In this document: positions 5,887 to 56,868 of the stretch, piece by piece
How the letters are laid out: every line of letters starts with the position of its first letter
How positions within the stretch are numbered: position 1 is the stretch's first letter
From: Candidatus Melainabacteria bacterium 17Bon1m
GTDB lineage: Bacteria > Cyanobacteriota > Vampirovibrionia > Obscuribacterales > Obscuribacteraceae
Assembly (NCBI GenBank): GCA_032128875.1
Contig: JAVLKG010000003.1
Location: 161,008-225,007 of the forward strand
Length of the DNA: 64,000 nucleotides
Direction of reading: 5' to 3'
Notes under the pieces: model-generated
What the model was told of the DNA's origin: nothing
Databases searched by the model: none
What the model saw: the letters and a program-made list of their open reading frames with translations, nothing else
Made by a program: the position numbers and the translations under genes

Positions 5887-7125
5887 ATGGACAGCCAGGT
5901 AAAACCAGTTTTCGCCCCAAATAGCATTTATTTGGACTACGCCGCGACCACCGCAGTGGATCGGCGCGTGCTCGACGCGATGTACGGCATCATGGCTCAG
6001 GGGCACACCGGCAATGCGCATGCACGCCATCATGTTTATGGTGCGGCGGCTCACCGCAGTGTTGAAGCTGCCCGACAGCAGGTCGCGGACGCTATTGGAG
6101 CGGATTCTGCCGAAATATTCTTTACTTCGGGCGCGACCGAGGCGAACAATCTCGCCATCAAGGGAATAGCGGCGCATCTCAAGGCCGAAGGGCGCATGCA
6201 CCTGGTCACCTCGGCAGTCGAGCATGCCAGCGTTTTGGAACCTTTGCGTGAGTTGGAAGCTCAGGGATTCGAACTGACTGTTCTCGGCGTGAAACCATGC
6301 GGCATGATTGAAGCCGACATGATTGAGCGCGCAATAAGACCTGATACCGGGTTGGTTTGCGTTCAGGCAGTCAATAACGAAGTCGGCGTAATTCAGCCGA
6401 TTAAAGAGATTGCAGTGATGTTGAAGGGTAGAGGAATACTCTTCCATTGCGATGCAGCGCAAGCGCTCGGCAAGACGAATTTCAAAGTCGACAGCAGCGC
6501 ATGCGCTGCGCAAACAGGGAGCCGCATGCGGCTCTCCTACGACAATGAGAGCACTGGTCCGGATTTCGTCAGTCTCTCTTCGCATAAAGTCTACGGTCCT
6601 CAAGGCATCGGTGCGCTTTATGTGCGAGCCGAAAAGAAGCACCTGCTTACTGCGGTAAGCCGCGGTGGCGGGCAGGAAGGTGGGCTGAGATCTGGAACAT
6701 TGCCGACTGCGCTTTGTGTTGGATTCGGCAAGGCGTGTTCTTTGCTCGAAGACGACACTCGGCATGTTCGTAGTTTGCGCTGGGCGTTTCTGAATCGATT
6801 GAGTTGGCTAAAACCCACAGTCTATGGTCATTCGCATTCTGATTGGAATGTGCCCGGTATACTCTGCGTTCGTTTTACAGGCATTGAAACCGAAACCCTC
6901 ATCATGGCATTGCCTGATCTCGCCTTCGGTATTGGAGCCGCATGCAGCAGCGGCGGTGCAAAATTGTCGCACGTCGTACGCGCCACCACCGGTAGTGATG
7001 AAGCTGCCCGCGAGAGTATGCGCATATCGTTTGGTCGTTTTACTACACATCAAGAAGTCCTCAGGGCTGCCGATTTGATAATCGAGGCAGTCGAAGAAAT
7101 TAGAGAAGTTCAGGGAGTTGCATAG
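5887..7125 (+). CDS. Cysteine desulfurase (IscS/NifS class I) carrying an in-frame REP-derived insertion
   Basis: YLDYAATT, FTSGATEANN, HCDAAQ, SSHKVYGPQG (PLP Lys), RSGT and GAACSSG (catalytic Cys). Confidence 0.93.
   Translation: MDSQVKPVFAPNSIYLDYAATTAVDRRVLDAMYGIMAQGHTGNAHARHHVYGAAAHRSVEAARQQVADAIGADSAEIFFTSGATEANNLAIKGIAAHLKAEGRMHLVTSAVEHASVLEPLRELEAQGFELTVLGVKPCGMIEADMIERAIRPDTGLVCVQAVNNEVGVIQPIKEIAVMLKGRGILFHCDAAQALGKTNFKVDSSACAAQTGSRMRLSYDNESTGPDFVSLSSHKVYGPQGIGALYVRAEKKHLLTAVSRGGGQEGGLRSGTLPTALCVGFGKACSLLEDDTRHVRSLRWAFLNRLSWLKPTVYGHSHSDWNVPGILCVRFTGIETETLIMALPDLAFGIGAACSSGGAKLSHVVRATTGSDEAARESMRISFGRFTTHQEVLRAADLIIEAVEEIREVQGVA
6494..6540. repeat. REP-like palindrome family A copy inside a CDS
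   Basis: GCAGCGCATGCGCTGC followed by CAGGGAGCCGCATGCGGCTCTCCTAC. The second half nearly matches 38863-38888 and 56843-56868. Confidence 0.9.
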
Positions 7126-8130
7126 ATGAAAATCGCGTTTGTAGGTAAGGGTGGATCGGGCAAAAGTACGCTCTCATCGCTGTTTATTCGCTATTTGCAA
7201 AACGTACGCAAACGCAACGTACTGGCAATCGATGCTGACTTAAACATGAACCTCGCCGGACTTCTTGGTGTGAAAGTCGATGAAAAGACGCTCATGGCGC
7301 GCCCTGAAGTAGCTGAGTCCATTCGCAATTTTCTTAAAGGCGGCAACAAACGGGTGCCGGACGTTTCGAAGTTTTTGCCGACAACTCCTCCGGGGGCTGG
7401 CTCAAACCTTGTTTGCTCTGCGCAAGAGCCTGGTCTTCAGCCTTTCTGTGTGAATGTTTCTCAATCACCGATAGTGAATTTGTTGACTGTCGGCTCTTAT
7501 GACAAAGATGGGATAGGGCAAACTTGCTACCACTCGCATCTCTTCGTCGCTGAGAATATCCTCTCGCATACGGTCACTTCGCCCGACTTCACTATCGTCT
7601 GCGATATGGTCGCCGGCACCGACGCATTTGCTTACTCCATGCATTTGCAATTCGATGCGATTGTTTTGATCGCTGAGCCCACACCGGAATCTACTGAAGT
7701 CTGCAAGTTGTATATGGACCTGGCTCGCCAATGCGGCGTTGATGAGCTGATTCATCTGGTTGGCAATAAGATCGAAGATGCTGACGATATCGAATTCATC
7801 AGCAAGACTGTGGATAAGAAGTTGCTCGTGTCCGTGCCGGCGATGCCTAAGCTGAAGAAAGCACGCCAGAGAGGAGAAATCGTTGGCGGTGAGTTGCTCG
7901 ACCCAACGCTAACGCAGGTGATGCGCATCATTGAGAACGAAGCTCAATTGCCGTCTATCAGCCCGGCGCAAAGGCTGGAGATGCTTCACAAACTTCATTT
8001 GAAATTGAACGATAAGCAATGGGTGCAACTCGGTTATGGCGACGTTGCAGATCAAATTGATCCCGATTTTCAATACCTTCCTCGGCACGCAGGAGTTGCT
8101 GCAGTCGGTTCTATAGGTAAATTAAGATGA
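7126..8130 (+). CDS. CooC/MinD-like P-loop ATPase
   Basis: MKIAFVGKGGSGKST deviant Walker A, AIDAD, DMVAG and VGNK. CYHSH at the CooC metal-binding position. Confidence 0.85.
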   Translation: MKIAFVGKGGSGKSTLSSLFIRYLQNVRKRNVLAIDADLNMNLAGLLGVKVDEKTLMARPEVAESIRNFLKGGNKRVPDVSKFLPTTPPGAGSNLVCSAQEPGLQPFCVNVSQSPIVNLLTVGSYDKDGIGQTCYHSHLFVAENILSHTVTSPDFTIVCDMVAGTDAFAYSMHLQFDAIVLIAEPTPESTEVCKLYMDLARQCGVDELIHLVGNKIEDADDIEFISKTVDKKLLVSVPAMPKLKKARQRGEIVGGELLDPTLTQVMRIIENEAQLPSISPAQRLEMLHKLHLKLNDKQWVQLGYGDVADQIDPDFQYLPRHAGVAAVGSIGKLR

Positions 8131-9743
8131 GCACGATTGAAGCACGAGAAGACAAGGCAGCTACCAAAAGAGCGGATCAGTGTTTGGCTGATGATTTGTT
8201 GTCCGCAGATAATTGCCGGCTGGAAGCCGGCGCTCTGTCCGCTGGCGCAAGTGGCGCTGCGGCCAATTCAGCAATCGATCGGGCGCGACCAAGGGTCAGA
8301 CCGGCCATGCACCCGGCTATTGCGCGTTTTCTCCAAAATGAAAAATTGGTCTTCTCTTTAGTTGATGGACTTGGATCACCGCTCAATGTGCTCTTTCCCA
8401 GGCATATCGAAGAGACGATTGGACGCTTCGAGCAGGTGTATAAAGATCGCCAAATGCAAGGCACGATTTACTACACATCGAAGCCAAACAAATCACTCGC
8501 ATTGAAAAAACAAGCTTCGACGACTGCCGTCGGATTGGATGTTTCTTCCGAAGGTGAGCTGAAGAGTGCGCTGGCTAGCGGCTTTCACCCGGAGCGAATC
8601 GAAGCGACTGGGCCAAAAAATATCGACTACCTTAGTCTTGCTATTCAGCAAAACGTTCTTATCAATGTGGATAATTTCACCGAGCTCAAGCAGATTGCGC
8701 AGATGAGCAGGTATTCTCCGCGCGGAAAGAAGGCGCGGGTCTTGGTGCGTCTTGATGGTTTTGAGCCCGGTCGCGTGAAGTTTACCGCTCAAGACAGCGC
8801 TTTCGGCACGCCGGTTAAGGATGCTCCAGCGATCATCGATTTCCTCCTTGAGCACAAGGACTGCATCGACTTCCATGGTTTCTCATTTCACTTCAATGCC
8901 GGTGATTACATACGGCGCCCACCAGCGATTGAAGAATGTTTGCAGCTCACTTTCCGCTGCCTGGAGTTAGGTTTAAACCCCCGCGCTATCGACATTGGCG
9001 GCGGCTATCGAATTCGCTACGCTGCCGATCAAGATGAGTGGAATACATATGTCGAAGAATTGAAAGCATCGGTTCTGGGCAATCGCGAATCGTTGACCTG
9101 GAATGATTCCGGTCTCGGATATCATCGCGAAGACGGCGTGTTGAAGGGCGCTCCCAACTTTATGGAGCACTACCATAAGAATGACGGGCACGAAGATTTT
9201 GCGTCTGTCATTGATACTCCGCTACCTGCGTTTGATGGATATTCCACGGCAAGAATTGTTTCCGACAATATGTTCGAGCTGCATATCGAGCCGGGTCGAG
9301 CGTTGTTGGATCAGTGCGGTATCACACTGGCGCACGTCAATTTCGATAAGACTTCTATTCTCGGTGAGCAGTTGTCCGTGCTCGATATGAATCGCACCAA
9401 CTTGAATTCAACGCAATTGAAATTAATGACCGATCCGATCGTCATTTATCGAAACACCGATAGAAAGCCAGCTGACAGAGGTGTTATGTATGTCGGAAAT
9501 TTGTGTTTGACGCACGACATGATTCAATATCACAAGACTTTCCCTGATGCGGTTCCGCAAACTGGGGATTTAGTCGCTTTTATAAACACCGCTGCATATC
9601 AAATGGATTTTGCCGAGACGCATGTTCTTGAGCAGTCGATTGCGAAGAAGGTTGCGGTCATTGAGAGTGAAGAAGGCGTATTCCGCTGGTTCCTCGATGA
9701 GCTGTACAACCCAATGGCTATTGCCGAGGGAGTCAAACCATGA
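8127..9743 (+). CDS. Y4yA-like PLP-dependent decarboxylase (LysA/ODC fold type III)
   Basis: YYTSKPNKS, DVSSEGEL, HFNAG, DIGGGY, EPGRALL, GNLCLTHD and NTAAYQMDF. ATGA overlap with the upstream gene. Confidence 0.85.
   Translation: MSTIEAREDKAATKRADQCLADDLLSADNCRLEAGALSAGASGAAANSAIDRARPRVRPAMHPAIARFLQNEKLVFSLVDGLGSPLNVLFPRHIEETIGRFEQVYKDRQMQGTIYYTSKPNKSLALKKQASTTAVGLDVSSEGELKSALASGFHPERIEATGPKNIDYLSLAIQQNVLINVDNFTELKQIAQMSRYSPRGKKARVLVRLDGFEPGRVKFTAQDSAFGTPVKDAPAIIDFLLEHKDCIDFHGFSFHFNAGDYIRRPPAIEECLQLTFRCLELGLNPRAIDIGGGYRIRYAADQDEWNTYVEELKASVLGNRESLTWNDSGLGYHREDGVLKGAPNFMEHYHKNDGHEDFASVIDTPLPAFDGYSTARIVSDNMFELHIEPGRALLDQCGITLAHVNFDKTSILGEQLSVLDMNRTNLNSTQLKLMTDPIVIYRNTDRKPADRGVMYVGNLCLTHDMIQYHKTFPDAVPQTGDLVAFINTAAYQMDFAETHVLEQSIAKKVAVIESEEGVFRWFLDELYNPMAIAEGVKP
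8214..8235 (-). repeat. REP-like palindrome family B copy inside a CDS N-terminus
   Basis: TGCCGGCTGGAAGCCGGCGCTC is the reverse complement of 16355-16376 with one mismatch. Confidence 0.7.
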
Positions 9744-38835: not shown

Positions 38836-38941
38836 GTAAGGGAAGCGCATGCGCTTCCCTTGCAGGGAGCCGCATGCGGCTCCCCTACGGCATGGTTAAA
38901 GCCAGCGCATGCGGCTCAGCTATGGCATGGTTTAAGCCAGC
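38836..38941. repeat. REP-like family A doublet plus 35-bp tandem duplication
   Basis: GTAAGGGAAGCGCATGCGCTTCCCTTGCAGGGAGCCGCATGCGGCTCCCCTAC. 38872-38906 is repeated at 38907-38941 (31/35). Confidence 0.9.
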
Positions 38942-49463: not shown

Positions 49464-49552
49464 TCTCACGTAGGGGAGGCGCATGCGCTGAATCTTACGT
49501 AGGGGAGGCGCATGCGCCTCCCTGTGCAGGGCGCCGCATGCGGGGCCCCTAC
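49458..49552. repeat. REP-like family A doublet plus 29-bp tandem duplication
   Basis: 49458-49486 is repeated at 49487-49515 (27/29). Full unit GTAGGGGAGGCGCATGCGCCTCCCTGTGCAGGGCGCCGCATGCGGGGCCCCTAC at 49499-49552. Confidence 0.9.
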
Positions 49553-56815: not shown

Positions 56816-56868
56816 GTAGGGGCGGCATACATGCCGCCATGCCAGGGAGCCGCATGCGGCTCCCTTAC
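56816..56868. repeat. REP-like family A doublet
   Basis: GTAGGGGCGGCATACATGCCGCCATGCCAGGGAGCCGCATGCGGCTCCCTTAC. Confidence 0.9.

What the first reader, a model, noticed from the sequence alone, without database searches (positions are those of the whole stretch)
6493..6540. A genome-dispersed REP palindrome is inserted in frame in a cysteine desulfurase, beside the PLP lysine
Seen: codons 203-218 (SSACAAQTGSRMRLSY) consist of two GCATGC-centred palindromes ending in CCTAC. The segment CAGGGAGCCGCATGCGGCTC(T/C)C(C/T)TAC also occurs intergenically at 38863 and 56843, and the latter likewise translates to GSRMRL. Known: in E. coli IscS the DxxQ aspartate and the PLP lysine are 26 residues apart (D180, K206). 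Here they are 45 apart (D189, K234), so about 19 residues are extra. All catalytic motifs and the reading frame are intact. Inference: selfish palindromic DNA has been recruited as new protein sequence, analogous to Rickettsia palindromic elements but from a GTAG-type REP family.
Basis: partly seen in the sequence, partly recalled or inferred. Interest (0 to 1): 0.85.

Follow-up and report, generated by a model that had tools for sequence, protein, structure and literature searches.

The report
REP hairpin repeat translated inside enzyme
A small mobile DNA hairpin repeat that normally sits between genes has landed in frame in a floppy loop of a sulfur-mobilising enzyme of a non-photosynthetic cyanobacterial relative; this is a clear case of a kind of event already described in other bacteria.

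Summary
Window 6493-6540 lies in frame in a 412-aa IscS/NifS-like cysteine desulfurase (5887..7125, +). It consists of two GCATGC-centred palindromes.

- **Repeat family.** The right palindrome plus its CTAC foot matches a GTAG/CTAC-footed REP family. This family has 213 units in the 7.55-Mb genome, mostly as ~53-nt doublets. A REP-flanked RAYT-like transposase gene is present.
- **Insertion.** The Asp-to-PLP-Lys spacing is 25-26 in 46 of 51 homologues and 45 only in the two REP bearers. Seven of 9 same-genus orthologues have the short loop. The nearest relative (90% identity) is 13 codons shorter and has 1 master REP copy, against 40 here.
- **Retention.** All 9 protein variants at 95-99% identity keep the insert, and contigs from three studies carry it. 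dN/dS against the nearest relative is 0.12, and the three-gene arrangement is conserved.
- **Structure.** The AlphaFold model is confident (pLDDT 90.6) except for the insert (<50).
- **Open points.** Transcription and translation were not shown.

A second doublet sits in frame in a CopA-like ATPase linker. Intragenic in-frame GTAG REP dimers were published in 2013 (PMC3733652), and this scan has met the same kind on other DNA before. Verdict: a real new member of a known kind, of modest interest.

The parts
5887..7125 (+). Cysteine desulfurase gene (412 aa), an IscS/NifS-like class-V PLP enzyme. It is a paralogue, not IscS proper.
   Evidence: ORF. Pfam Aminotran_5 E=1e-65. NCBIfam IscS 384 bits, below the cut-off of 548. 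PDB NFS1/IscS E~1e-91/1e-86. Invariant H113, D189, Q192, H233, K234, C353.
6494..6509 (+). Left, diverged REP unit. It is a perfect 16-nt palindrome with the CGCATGCG core, encoding SACAA. It lacks the GGG/CCC outer stem and the GTAG foot.
   Evidence: It starts 25 nt before the right unit when read as a 20-mer (2106 vs 2131 in L001). This is the commonest doublet spacing (44 of 71 spacings).
6517..6540 (+). Right REP unit (20 nt) plus CTAC foot, encoding GSRMRLSY. It has one mismatch (C->T at 6535) to the master copy. Most sister variants have Pro at residue 217, as the master sequence would encode.
   Evidence: The master 20-mer occurs 40 times exactly in the genome.
6541..6558 (+). DNESTG. 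These six extra loop residues are shared with the two nearest relatives and are not REP-derived.
   Evidence: Codon alignment: L002 has DDSSLG and L003 has ENDALG. They are absent in the 11 other orthologues of that alignment.
38836..38888 (.). Canonical intergenic REP doublet: GTAA foot, unit, TTGCA junction, master unit, CTAC foot. It lies between convergent ORFs.
49470..49552 (.). Intergenic cluster of three REP units of the same family.
56817..56868 (.). REP doublet (diverged left unit, master right unit, TTAC foot) just downstream of an ORF end.

Best explanation
A two-unit element (doublet) of this genome's own REP family was copied into the cysteine desulfurase gene. The family is GTAG/CTAC-footed, and its likely mobiliser is the single RAYT-type HUH tyrosine transposase encoded in the genome.

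The insertion lies in the DNA coding for a loop between the strand that carries Asp189/Gln192 and the strand that carries the PLP lysine (Lys234). It is a multiple of three, lies in a stop-free frame of the repeat, and falls in a length-variable loop that is probably exposed. The enzyme therefore survived, and the repeat is read as about 13-17 extra residues.

The event is specific to the species-level lineage of this genome, in which the REP family expanded. The insert is most likely a tolerated passenger, not an adaptation.

**Shown:**
- repeat identity
- copy numbers
- absence of the insert in orthologues
- retention among variants and in independent assemblies
- purifying selection on the gene

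**Inferred:**
- RAYT as the mobiliser
- surface exposure of the loop
- neutrality of the insert
- translation of the insert
For: **Repeat family.**
- There are 223 hits at <=2 mismatches to the family pattern in the 7.55-Mb genome.
- Of these, 213 are hairpin-forming units in 142 clusters: 69 doublets, 1 triplet and 72 singles.
- Unit spacing is 25 nt in 44 of 71 cases and 26 nt in 25 of 71.
- The left foot is GTAG in 41 of 69 doublets, and the right foot is CTAC in 43 of 69.
- Stems covary among subfamilies.

**RAYT.**
- One Y1_Tnp match in the genome scores 25.4 bits, over the cut-off of 23.
- The protein has 162 aa and scores 66.7 bits against NCBIfam REP-associated tyrosine transposase.
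- Master REPs lie on both sides of the gene.

**Insertion.**
- Seven of 9 same-genus orthologues and all four from other genera have the short loop.
- G008 has +6 aa, G011 (90% identical) has +7, and this genome has +20.
- D-to-K spacing is 25-26 in 46 of 51 homologues and 45 only in the two REP bearers.

**Lineage-specific expansion.** Exact master copies number 40 here, 1 in G011, 6 in G006, 1 each in G004 and G009, and 0 in the other 20 genomes searched.

**Retention.**
- All 9 distinct cluster members (95-99% identity) carry the insert.
- The exact protein is on record on 28 contigs.
- Contigs of runs from two further studies (X8, X12) span it without an indel.

**Selection and context.**
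- dN/dS against G011 is 0.12, with dS 0.41.
- Of the 14 listed X12 differences in the gene, 9 nucleotides are synonymous and 5 are non-synonymous.
- The downstream ATPase gene follows in 15 of 16 loci.

**Structure.** The AF2 model has mean pLDDT 90.6 and pTM 0.89, with residues 205-216 below 50.

**Same process elsewhere.** A second doublet lies in frame in a CopA-like ATPase linker and is absent from all seven genus relatives that have the gene.
Against: **No expression evidence.** The three RNA-labelled runs that hold the gene do so on 10-16 kb contigs with flat depth, identical to the genome. This can equally be DNA in the library.

**The left unit is diverged.** It has no GGG/CCC stem and no GTAG foot. 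Reading the whole 51 nt as one inserted doublet rests on its core, its perfect 16-nt palindrome and its canonical 25-nt spacing.

**Boundaries and timing are unresolved.** G011's shorter loop reads S-P-C-A where this genome reads S-A-C-A, and it shares TGCGC with the left unit. So part of the left palindrome may predate the event, or G011 may be a partial-deletion derivative.

**No empty-site allele** at >95% identity was seen.

**Low pLDDT** means 'not predicted', not proven disorder. No coordinates were available to measure exposure or distance to the active site or dimer interface.

**The RAYT scores below NCBIfam's curated cut-off** (66.7 against 80).
Confidence: 0.86

Rival explanations
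1. The REP-derived loop has been co-opted for function. Its invariant Cys206 could act as a persulfide relay or partner-docking element next to the PLP site. Alternatively, the two hairpins in the mRNA could modulate translation or stability of the three-gene transcript.
For: - Cys206, Ser204 and Ala207 are invariant in all 10 aligned sequences, including G011's short S-P-C-A loop.
- All 9 variants retain the insert.
- The 61-nt RNA folds into two hairpins at -27.6 kcal/mol, z = -2.9.
- The insert sits between the Asp/Gln strand and the PLP-lysine strand.
Against: - The variants are only 1-5% diverged, so invariance is expected by descent.
- Four of the ~17 insert residues already vary (A208S, G211E, S217P, Y218C). 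G211E and S217 break the hairpin stem.
- The same loop carries unrelated inserts of +6, +7 and +10 residues in other lineages, which marks it as a permissive site.
- The same family inserted in an unrelated linker in a CopA-like ATPase.
- The published view for such inserts is neutrality in loops and linkers (PMC3733652 discussion passage).
Confidence: 0.08
2. The gene was inactivated by the insertion and is a young pseudogene that has not yet accumulated stops.
For: - The insert lies only 16 residues from the PLP lysine.
- The genome has at least four other class-V desulfurase-like genes that could compensate (5 matches in G000).
- This gene is less conserved than its ATPase neighbour: 89.6% against 96.3% identity to G011.
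Against: - The frame is intact in 9 of 9 variants.
- dN/dS is 0.12 against G011.
- Synonymous changes are in excess in the 99.3%-identical X12 variant.
- All catalytic residues are kept.
- The model is confident outside the loop.
Confidence: 0.04
3. The palindromes are an assembly or chimera artefact, or a chance resemblance to the intergenic repeat.
For: REPs are repeated, and short-read assemblers can mis-join at repeats. Several contigs of this assembly end in a REP (copies at C1:138, C29:101, C31:50, C34:56).
Against: - Contigs from three studies span the site without an indel or joint: X2/X3, X8 and X12. X12 is a 10.8-kb contig with 54 differences.
- Nine distinct protein variants from several sources carry it.
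- The 26-nt match is exact at 3 places in the window, against 0 in 100 shuffles.
Confidence: 0.02

Closest known systems
Intragenic GTAG-tagged REPs (Di Nocera, De Gregorio & Rocco 2013, BMC Genomics 14:522, PMC3733652; passages read)
   Same: - A short GC-rich hairpin repeat with a GTAG foot, mostly intergenic.
- A few copies lie entirely inside ORFs in frame.
- More than half of such inserts are dimers.
- The authors argue that the inserts sit in flexible loops or linkers and are probably neutral.
- RAYT genes are flanked by the repeats.
   Different: - The host is a Melainabacteria-type organism. That paper lists Cyanobacteria, but my term search turned up no paper among the 15 listed of 92 that joins these taxa with REP/RAYT.
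- The target is a cysteine desulfurase next to its PLP lysine. [quoted passage not shown]
- The doublet here encodes about 17 residues, against 20-30 in that paper.
'Double-foot' REPs and in-frame REP insertions of TnpA-REP subclass 2.4 (Quentin, Siguier, Chandler & Fichant 2018, PMC6006769; passages read)
   Same: - The element carries 5' GT[AG]G and 3' C[TC]AC feet.
- The stem bottom consists of three G-C pairs.
- Insertions that keep the reading frame are documented.
- The subclass is abundant in Cyanobacteria.
   Different: - There the in-frame insertions are in the transposase gene itself. Here they are in a metabolic enzyme and a transporter.
- I did not assign this RAYT to a subclass. 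Its motifs are NHLH and YIADNP.
Rickettsia palindromic elements (RPE; Ogata et al. 2000, Science 290:347; cited in PMC3184786, passages read)
   Same: Selfish palindromic DNA inserted in frame in protein-coding genes and tolerated.
   Different: - RPEs are ~105-146 nt (table in PMC3184786). This element is about 51-53 nt.
- The organism and repeat family are different.
- A cognate RAYT is present here.
REPIN-RAYT systems (Bertels & Rainey 2011, PMC3116915; abstract seen in listing)
   Same: REP doublets are the unit of amplification, the RAYT is single-copy, and the REP population is lineage-specific.
   Different: The two units here are 5-6 nt apart and each is itself a full palindrome. No mobility was tested.

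Membership tests
GTAG-type REP / REPIN-RAYT system | Short (20-40 nt) GC-rich palindromic hairpin unit | tested here: met
   The 20-nt unit has 9 possible stem pairs. 213 units have >=8 of 9 pairs. The subfamilies have compensatory stems.
GTAG-type REP / REPIN-RAYT system | High copy number, dispersed, predominantly extragenic | tested here: met
   There are 142 clusters on many contigs. Among 233 candidate units, only two loci with family-like stems have coding signal on both sides in an open frame, plus one ambiguous locus at C5:106937. This is a crude hexamer test that needs +-40 open codons, so copies near gene ends are missed.
GTAG-type REP / REPIN-RAYT system | Conserved GT[AG]G tetranucleotide at the hairpin foot | tested here: met
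   For the family, the left foot is GTAG in 41, GTAA in 12 and GTAC in 8 of 69 doublets. The right foot is CTAC in 43 of 69. For the copy in the gene, the 3' CTAC is present and the 5' GTAG is absent.
GTAG-type REP / REPIN-RAYT system | Cognate RAYT (Y1 HUH transposase) gene flanked by the REPs | tested here: met
   There is a single Y1_Tnp match in the genome, 25.4 bits over the cut-off of 23. NF047646 scores 66.7 bits, under the cut-off of 80. Master REPs lie 30 nt downstream and about 160 nt upstream of the gene, the upstream copy followed by two further partial units.
GTAG-type REP / REPIN-RAYT system | RAYT binds and cleaves its REP; the element is mobile | not testable with these tools
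   The only indirect evidence is 40 exact master copies here against 0-6 in 24 relatives.
Rickettsia palindromic elements (RPE) | Element of ~105-146 nt belonging to the Rickettsia RPE sequence families | tested here: not met
   The element here is 51-53 nt. The RPE size comes from the table in PMC3184786. No sequence comparison with RPEs was run.
Group-I (IscS/NifS-like) cysteine desulfurase | Class-V aminotransferase fold with the PLP lysine, Asp/Gln PLP ligands and the catalytic-loop cysteine | tested here: met
   Pfam PF00266 E=1e-65. H113, D189, Q192, H233, K234 and C353 are invariant in 51 homologues. NFS1/IscS chains match at E 1e-91 to 1e-86.
IscS proper (NCBIfam equivalog NF010611/TIGR02006) | Score over the curated equivalog cut-off | tested here: not met
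   384.3 bits against 548, and 378.1 against 643.2. DndA scores 353.9 against 480. It is a paralogue in a conserved trio with a CbiA/ParA-like ATPase and a PLP decarboxylase.

The most novel reading that the evidence does not exclude
The REP-encoded loop is not a passenger. The invariant Cys206 that it brings or keeps next to the PLP site may serve as an extra persulfide-carrying or partner-docking arm of this paralogous desulfurase. If so, a mobile hairpin repeat has given an enzyme a new working part. More broadly, REP families in this lineage may act as a steady source of new loops. Three in-frame copies from two families were seen in one genome, two of them in this one three-gene cluster.
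Probability: 0.07. Interest if true: 0.6.

Novelty: new member of a known kind. Interest (0 to 1): 0.3.

Why it matters
This is a clean, datable example of how a mobile hairpin repeat becomes protein sequence.
- The filled site, several empty orthologous sites, the expanding repeat family and its putative transposase are all visible together.
- The target is an enzyme with many solved relatives, so the cost or neutrality of a 17-residue insert near a PLP site can be measured directly.
- It extends REP/RAYT systems with translated copies to the non-photosynthetic sister group of cyanobacteria.

It does not change the current picture, because in-frame REP insertions in loops and linkers are already in print.

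Tried and rejected
**Expression.**
- The look-up of sequencing runs listed 6 RNA rows.
- The two laid (X2, X3) hold the gene on 10-16 kb contigs identical to the genome with flat depth. The tool itself warns that this does not show transcription. No conclusion on expression follows.
- The 'joint' 6539->8214 in X2/X3 comes from other repeat-bearing contigs, not from a spliced form.

**Nucleotide sequences of the 95-99% variants.** The one metagenome scan returned only relatives of <=83% identity, 39 loci in all. The post-insertion dN/dS therefore could not be computed properly.

**Other in-frame REPs.** Of 22 loci with a REP inside a stop-to-stop frame of >=150 aa:
- Most have the REP 25-60 codons from the frame's start, with no start codon or only a few ahead of it.
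- Eleven frames went to Pfam. Only the CopA-like ATPase has domains on both sides of the REP.
- In the Ldh-like frame the domain starts 57 residues after the REP.
- One frame had only a sub-threshold match (DUF6069, 17.1 bits against the cut-off of 27.2), and the remaining eight had none.

**Chance hits.**
- About 24 of the 223 two-mismatch hits are expected by chance (my arithmetic).
- The non-palindromic hits inside genes are of that kind.
- C5:106937 and the 18-nt palindrome at C5:559939 stay ambiguous.

**The 9-aa insert of G006 near residue 72.** It showed no REP-like sequence.

**Supplement search of PMC3733652.** A search for 'desulfurase', 'aminotransferase', 'ATPase' and 'GSRMR' found no occurrence in the 4 files held. 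These files may be incomplete.

**Not run.** No fold search and no complex prediction were run, because sequence matches to solved IscS/NFS1 were already decisive.

Full report
**What is there**

Window 5887..7125 (+) is a 412-aa open reading frame.
- It is a class-V aminotransferase-fold cysteine desulfurase: Pfam PF00266, E=1e-65.
- Its best solved relatives are human NFS1 and E. coli IscS, E about 1e-91 and 1e-86.
- It scores below NCBIfam's equivalog cut-offs for IscS (384 against 548 bits), DndA and NifS, so it is a paralogue.
- The genome has four further class-V matches.

Codons 203-218 (window 6493-6540) read SSACAAQTGSRMRLSY. They consist of three parts:
- a perfect 16-nt palindrome at 6494-6509
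- a 20-nt hairpin unit at 6517-6536
- CTAC at 6537-6540

**The repeat family**

The genome is 7.55 Mb in 35 contigs, and the window is C3:161008-225007.
- The pattern GGG-N3-CGCATGCG-N3-CCC has 223 hits at up to two mismatches. About 24 of these are expected by chance by my arithmetic.
- With a hairpin requirement, there are 213 units in 142 clusters: 69 doublets, one triplet and 72 singles.
- Successive units start 25 nt apart in 44 of 71 cases and 26 nt apart in 25 of 71.
- Doublets carry GTAG on the left in 41 of 69 cases, and GTAA or GTAC in 20 more.
- They carry CTAC on the right in 43 of 69 cases.
- A TGNCA-like junction separates the two units.
- One unit is usually the master sequence, which has 40 exact copies. 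The other unit has a different but self-complementary stem.

This is the 'double foot' GT[AG]G...C[TC]AC layout described for some REP families in PMC6006769 (passage read).

In the window the 26-nt pattern matches six times, against none in 100 shuffles.
- The copies at 38863 and 49499/49527 are intergenic.
- The copy at 56843 lies just past an ORF end.

**The transposase**

A single Y1_Tnp match exists in the genome, at 25.4 bits against a cut-off of 23.
- The 162-aa product has NHLH and YIADNP motifs.
- It matches NCBIfam 'REP-associated tyrosine transposase' at 66.7 bits, under that model's cut-off of 80.
- Master REPs lie on both sides of the gene, and the upstream copy is followed by two further partial units.

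That is the usual REP-RAYT arrangement. Activity was not and could not be tested.

**It is an insertion**

*Orthologues in related genomes*. Orthologues were found in 13 related genomes: 9 of the same genus and 4 of other genera of the family.
- Seven of the 9 same-genus orthologues have a four-residue loop (type D-V-S-N-R-V-D-F).
- All four orthologues from other genera have a five-residue loop.
- G008 has six more residues, G011 (90% identical protein) has seven more, and this genome has twenty more.
- The six residues DNESTG are shared in kind with G011 and G008 and are not repeat-derived.
- The repeat accounts for 13 codons more than G011 and 14 more than G008.

*Asp189-to-Lys234 spacing across 51 homologues*.
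- 25 or 26 in 46 sequences
- 31, 32 and 35 in one sequence each
- 45 only in the two REP bearers

The loop is, however, a site where unrelated short inserts recur.

**It is lineage-specific and recent**

Exact master copies:
- 40 in this genome
- 1 in G011
- 6 in G006
- 1 each in G004 and G009
- none in the other 20 genomes searched, several of which are incomplete

The right unit in the gene differs from the master by one base. Most sister variants have Pro at residue 217, as the master sequence would encode.

**It is not an artefact, and the gene looks alive**

- The protein's 90%-identity cluster has nine distinct members at 95-99% identity. Eight are full length, and all nine carry the insert.
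- The exact protein is on record on 28 contigs.
- Contigs of two further studies span the site without an indel. One is a 10.8-kb contig (X12) with 54 differences over 8 kb. The other is a 584-nt contig (X8).
- Four insert positions vary among the nine members: A208S, G211E, S217P and Y218C. Two of these changes weaken the hairpin, as expected for a loop that is no longer kept as a DNA hairpin.
- dN/dS against G011 is 0.12 at dS 0.41.
- Of the 14 listed X12 differences in the gene, nine nucleotides are synonymous and five change a residue. The table was truncated.
- The trio of desulfurase, CbiA/ParA-like ATPase and PLP decarboxylase is conserved. The ATPase follows in 15 of 16 loci checked.
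- H113, D189, Q192, H233, K234 and C353 are invariant.

**Structure**

An AlphaFold2 model built on 51 sequences has mean pLDDT 90.6 and pTM 0.89.
- The only internal stretch below 50 is 205-216.
- This stretch lies between strand 185-189 and strand 227-231.

That fits a flexible surface loop, but I had no coordinates, so exposure and distance to the active site are inferred.

**What was not shown**

Transcription and translation.
- The RNA-labelled runs hold the gene on 10-16 kb contigs identical to the genome, which can be DNA carry-over.
- As RNA, the insert would fold into two hairpins at -27.6 kcal/mol, z = -2.9.

The exact boundaries also remain open.
- The left unit lacks the GGG/CCC stem and the GTAG foot.
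- G011's loop reads S-P-C-A where this genome reads S-A-C-A, and it shares TGCGC with that unit.
- G011 may therefore be a true empty site, with part of the palindrome pre-existing, or a partial deletion of an older insertion.

**The same process elsewhere in the genome**

I ran a hexamer coding-potential screen of all 233 candidate units.
- True 120-nt coding windows scored 0.02 at the 5th percentile and 0.33 at the median.
- Non-coding windows scored 0.21 at the 95th percentile.

The screen found one more family-like locus with coding signal on both sides. It is a canonical doublet at G000 C8:197872-197924, in a 946-aa open frame.
- Pfam shows two YHS domains, an HMBD, an E1-E2 ATPase domain and a HAD domain in this frame.
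- The seven genus relatives that have the gene have one continuous frame there without the doublet.
- The closest of these (G007) is 17 residues shorter in that linker.

The other candidates have the REP upstream of the likely start, or have no support.

**Comparison with what is known**

- In-frame intragenic GTAG REPs are described in PMC3733652 (passages read). More than half are dimers, and the authors argue that they sit in loops or linkers.
- Frame-keeping REP insertions in RAYT genes are described in PMC6006769.
- The Rickettsia RPE precedent and other repeat-in-ORF cases are summarised in PMC3184786.
- My search for Melainabacteria-type names together with REP, RAYT or REPIN terms returned 92 papers holding two or more of the six terms. 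None of the 15 listed joined a taxon name with a repeat term. This is not proof that none exists.
- Earlier notes of this scan report the same kind of finding on other genomes. Thirty-three notes hold the search words, and eight were shown. None concerns this place or this sequence.

**Verdict**

The observation and the interpretation hold. The case is unusually well documented by comparative data, but it is a new member of a known kind. Interest is about 0.3. The one reading that would raise it is a functional role for the loop and its invariant cysteine. That reading is not excluded but has no positive support beyond retention over a short time.

Noticed in passing
G000 C8:197872-197924 (L022 472-524), outside the window: A second canonical REP doublet of the same family lies in frame (V-GEPHAAPSQGGACAAP-T). 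It sits in the linker between two YHS domains of a CopA-like P-type ATPase, in a 946-aa open frame. All seven genus relatives that have the gene lack it.
   Followed up: yes
window 8215-8241, inside ORF 8127..9743: A second, different dispersed repeat family is present, with a hairpin plus tail and a consensus near TGCCGGCTGGAAGCCGGCGCTCCGGCC. It has 46 hits at <=2 mismatches in the genome, against about 1 expected. One copy lies in frame (CRLEAGA) in the variable N-terminal part of the PLP decarboxylase. G011 shares it, and the 13 other loci aligned lack it.
   Followed up: partly
window 5887-9743 and loci L002-L014, L042, L043, L045: The gene trio of cysteine desulfurase, CbiA/ParA-like ATPase and DAP-decarboxylase-like PLP enzyme is conserved across the family. 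The ATPase is found in 15 of 16 loci. The pathway is unknown.
   Followed up: partly
G000 C12:144340-145100 (L021 1404-2180): The RAYT-like gene (162 aa, minus strand) has a master REP 30 nt downstream. Upstream lies a master unit followed by two partial units about 27 nt apart. Read as protein, this array repeats YGSRMR.
   Followed up: partly
protein P0016 (73% identical homologue), same loop: This homologue carries an unrelated 10-residue insert (SHEDGKPRVRGWG region) at the same loop position. The loop is a recurrent indel site.
   Followed up: no
G000 C5:106937-106956 and C5:559939-559956: A GU-containing hairpin resembling a REP unit, and an 18-nt perfect palindrome with the CGCATGCG core, each lie inside a frame with coding signal on both sides. 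They may be old genic REP remnants or chance.
   Followed up: no
contig ends of G000 (C1:138, C29:101, C31:50, C34:56): Several contigs begin within about 150 nt of a master REP. This suggests that the repeat family breaks the short-read assembly.
   Followed up: no
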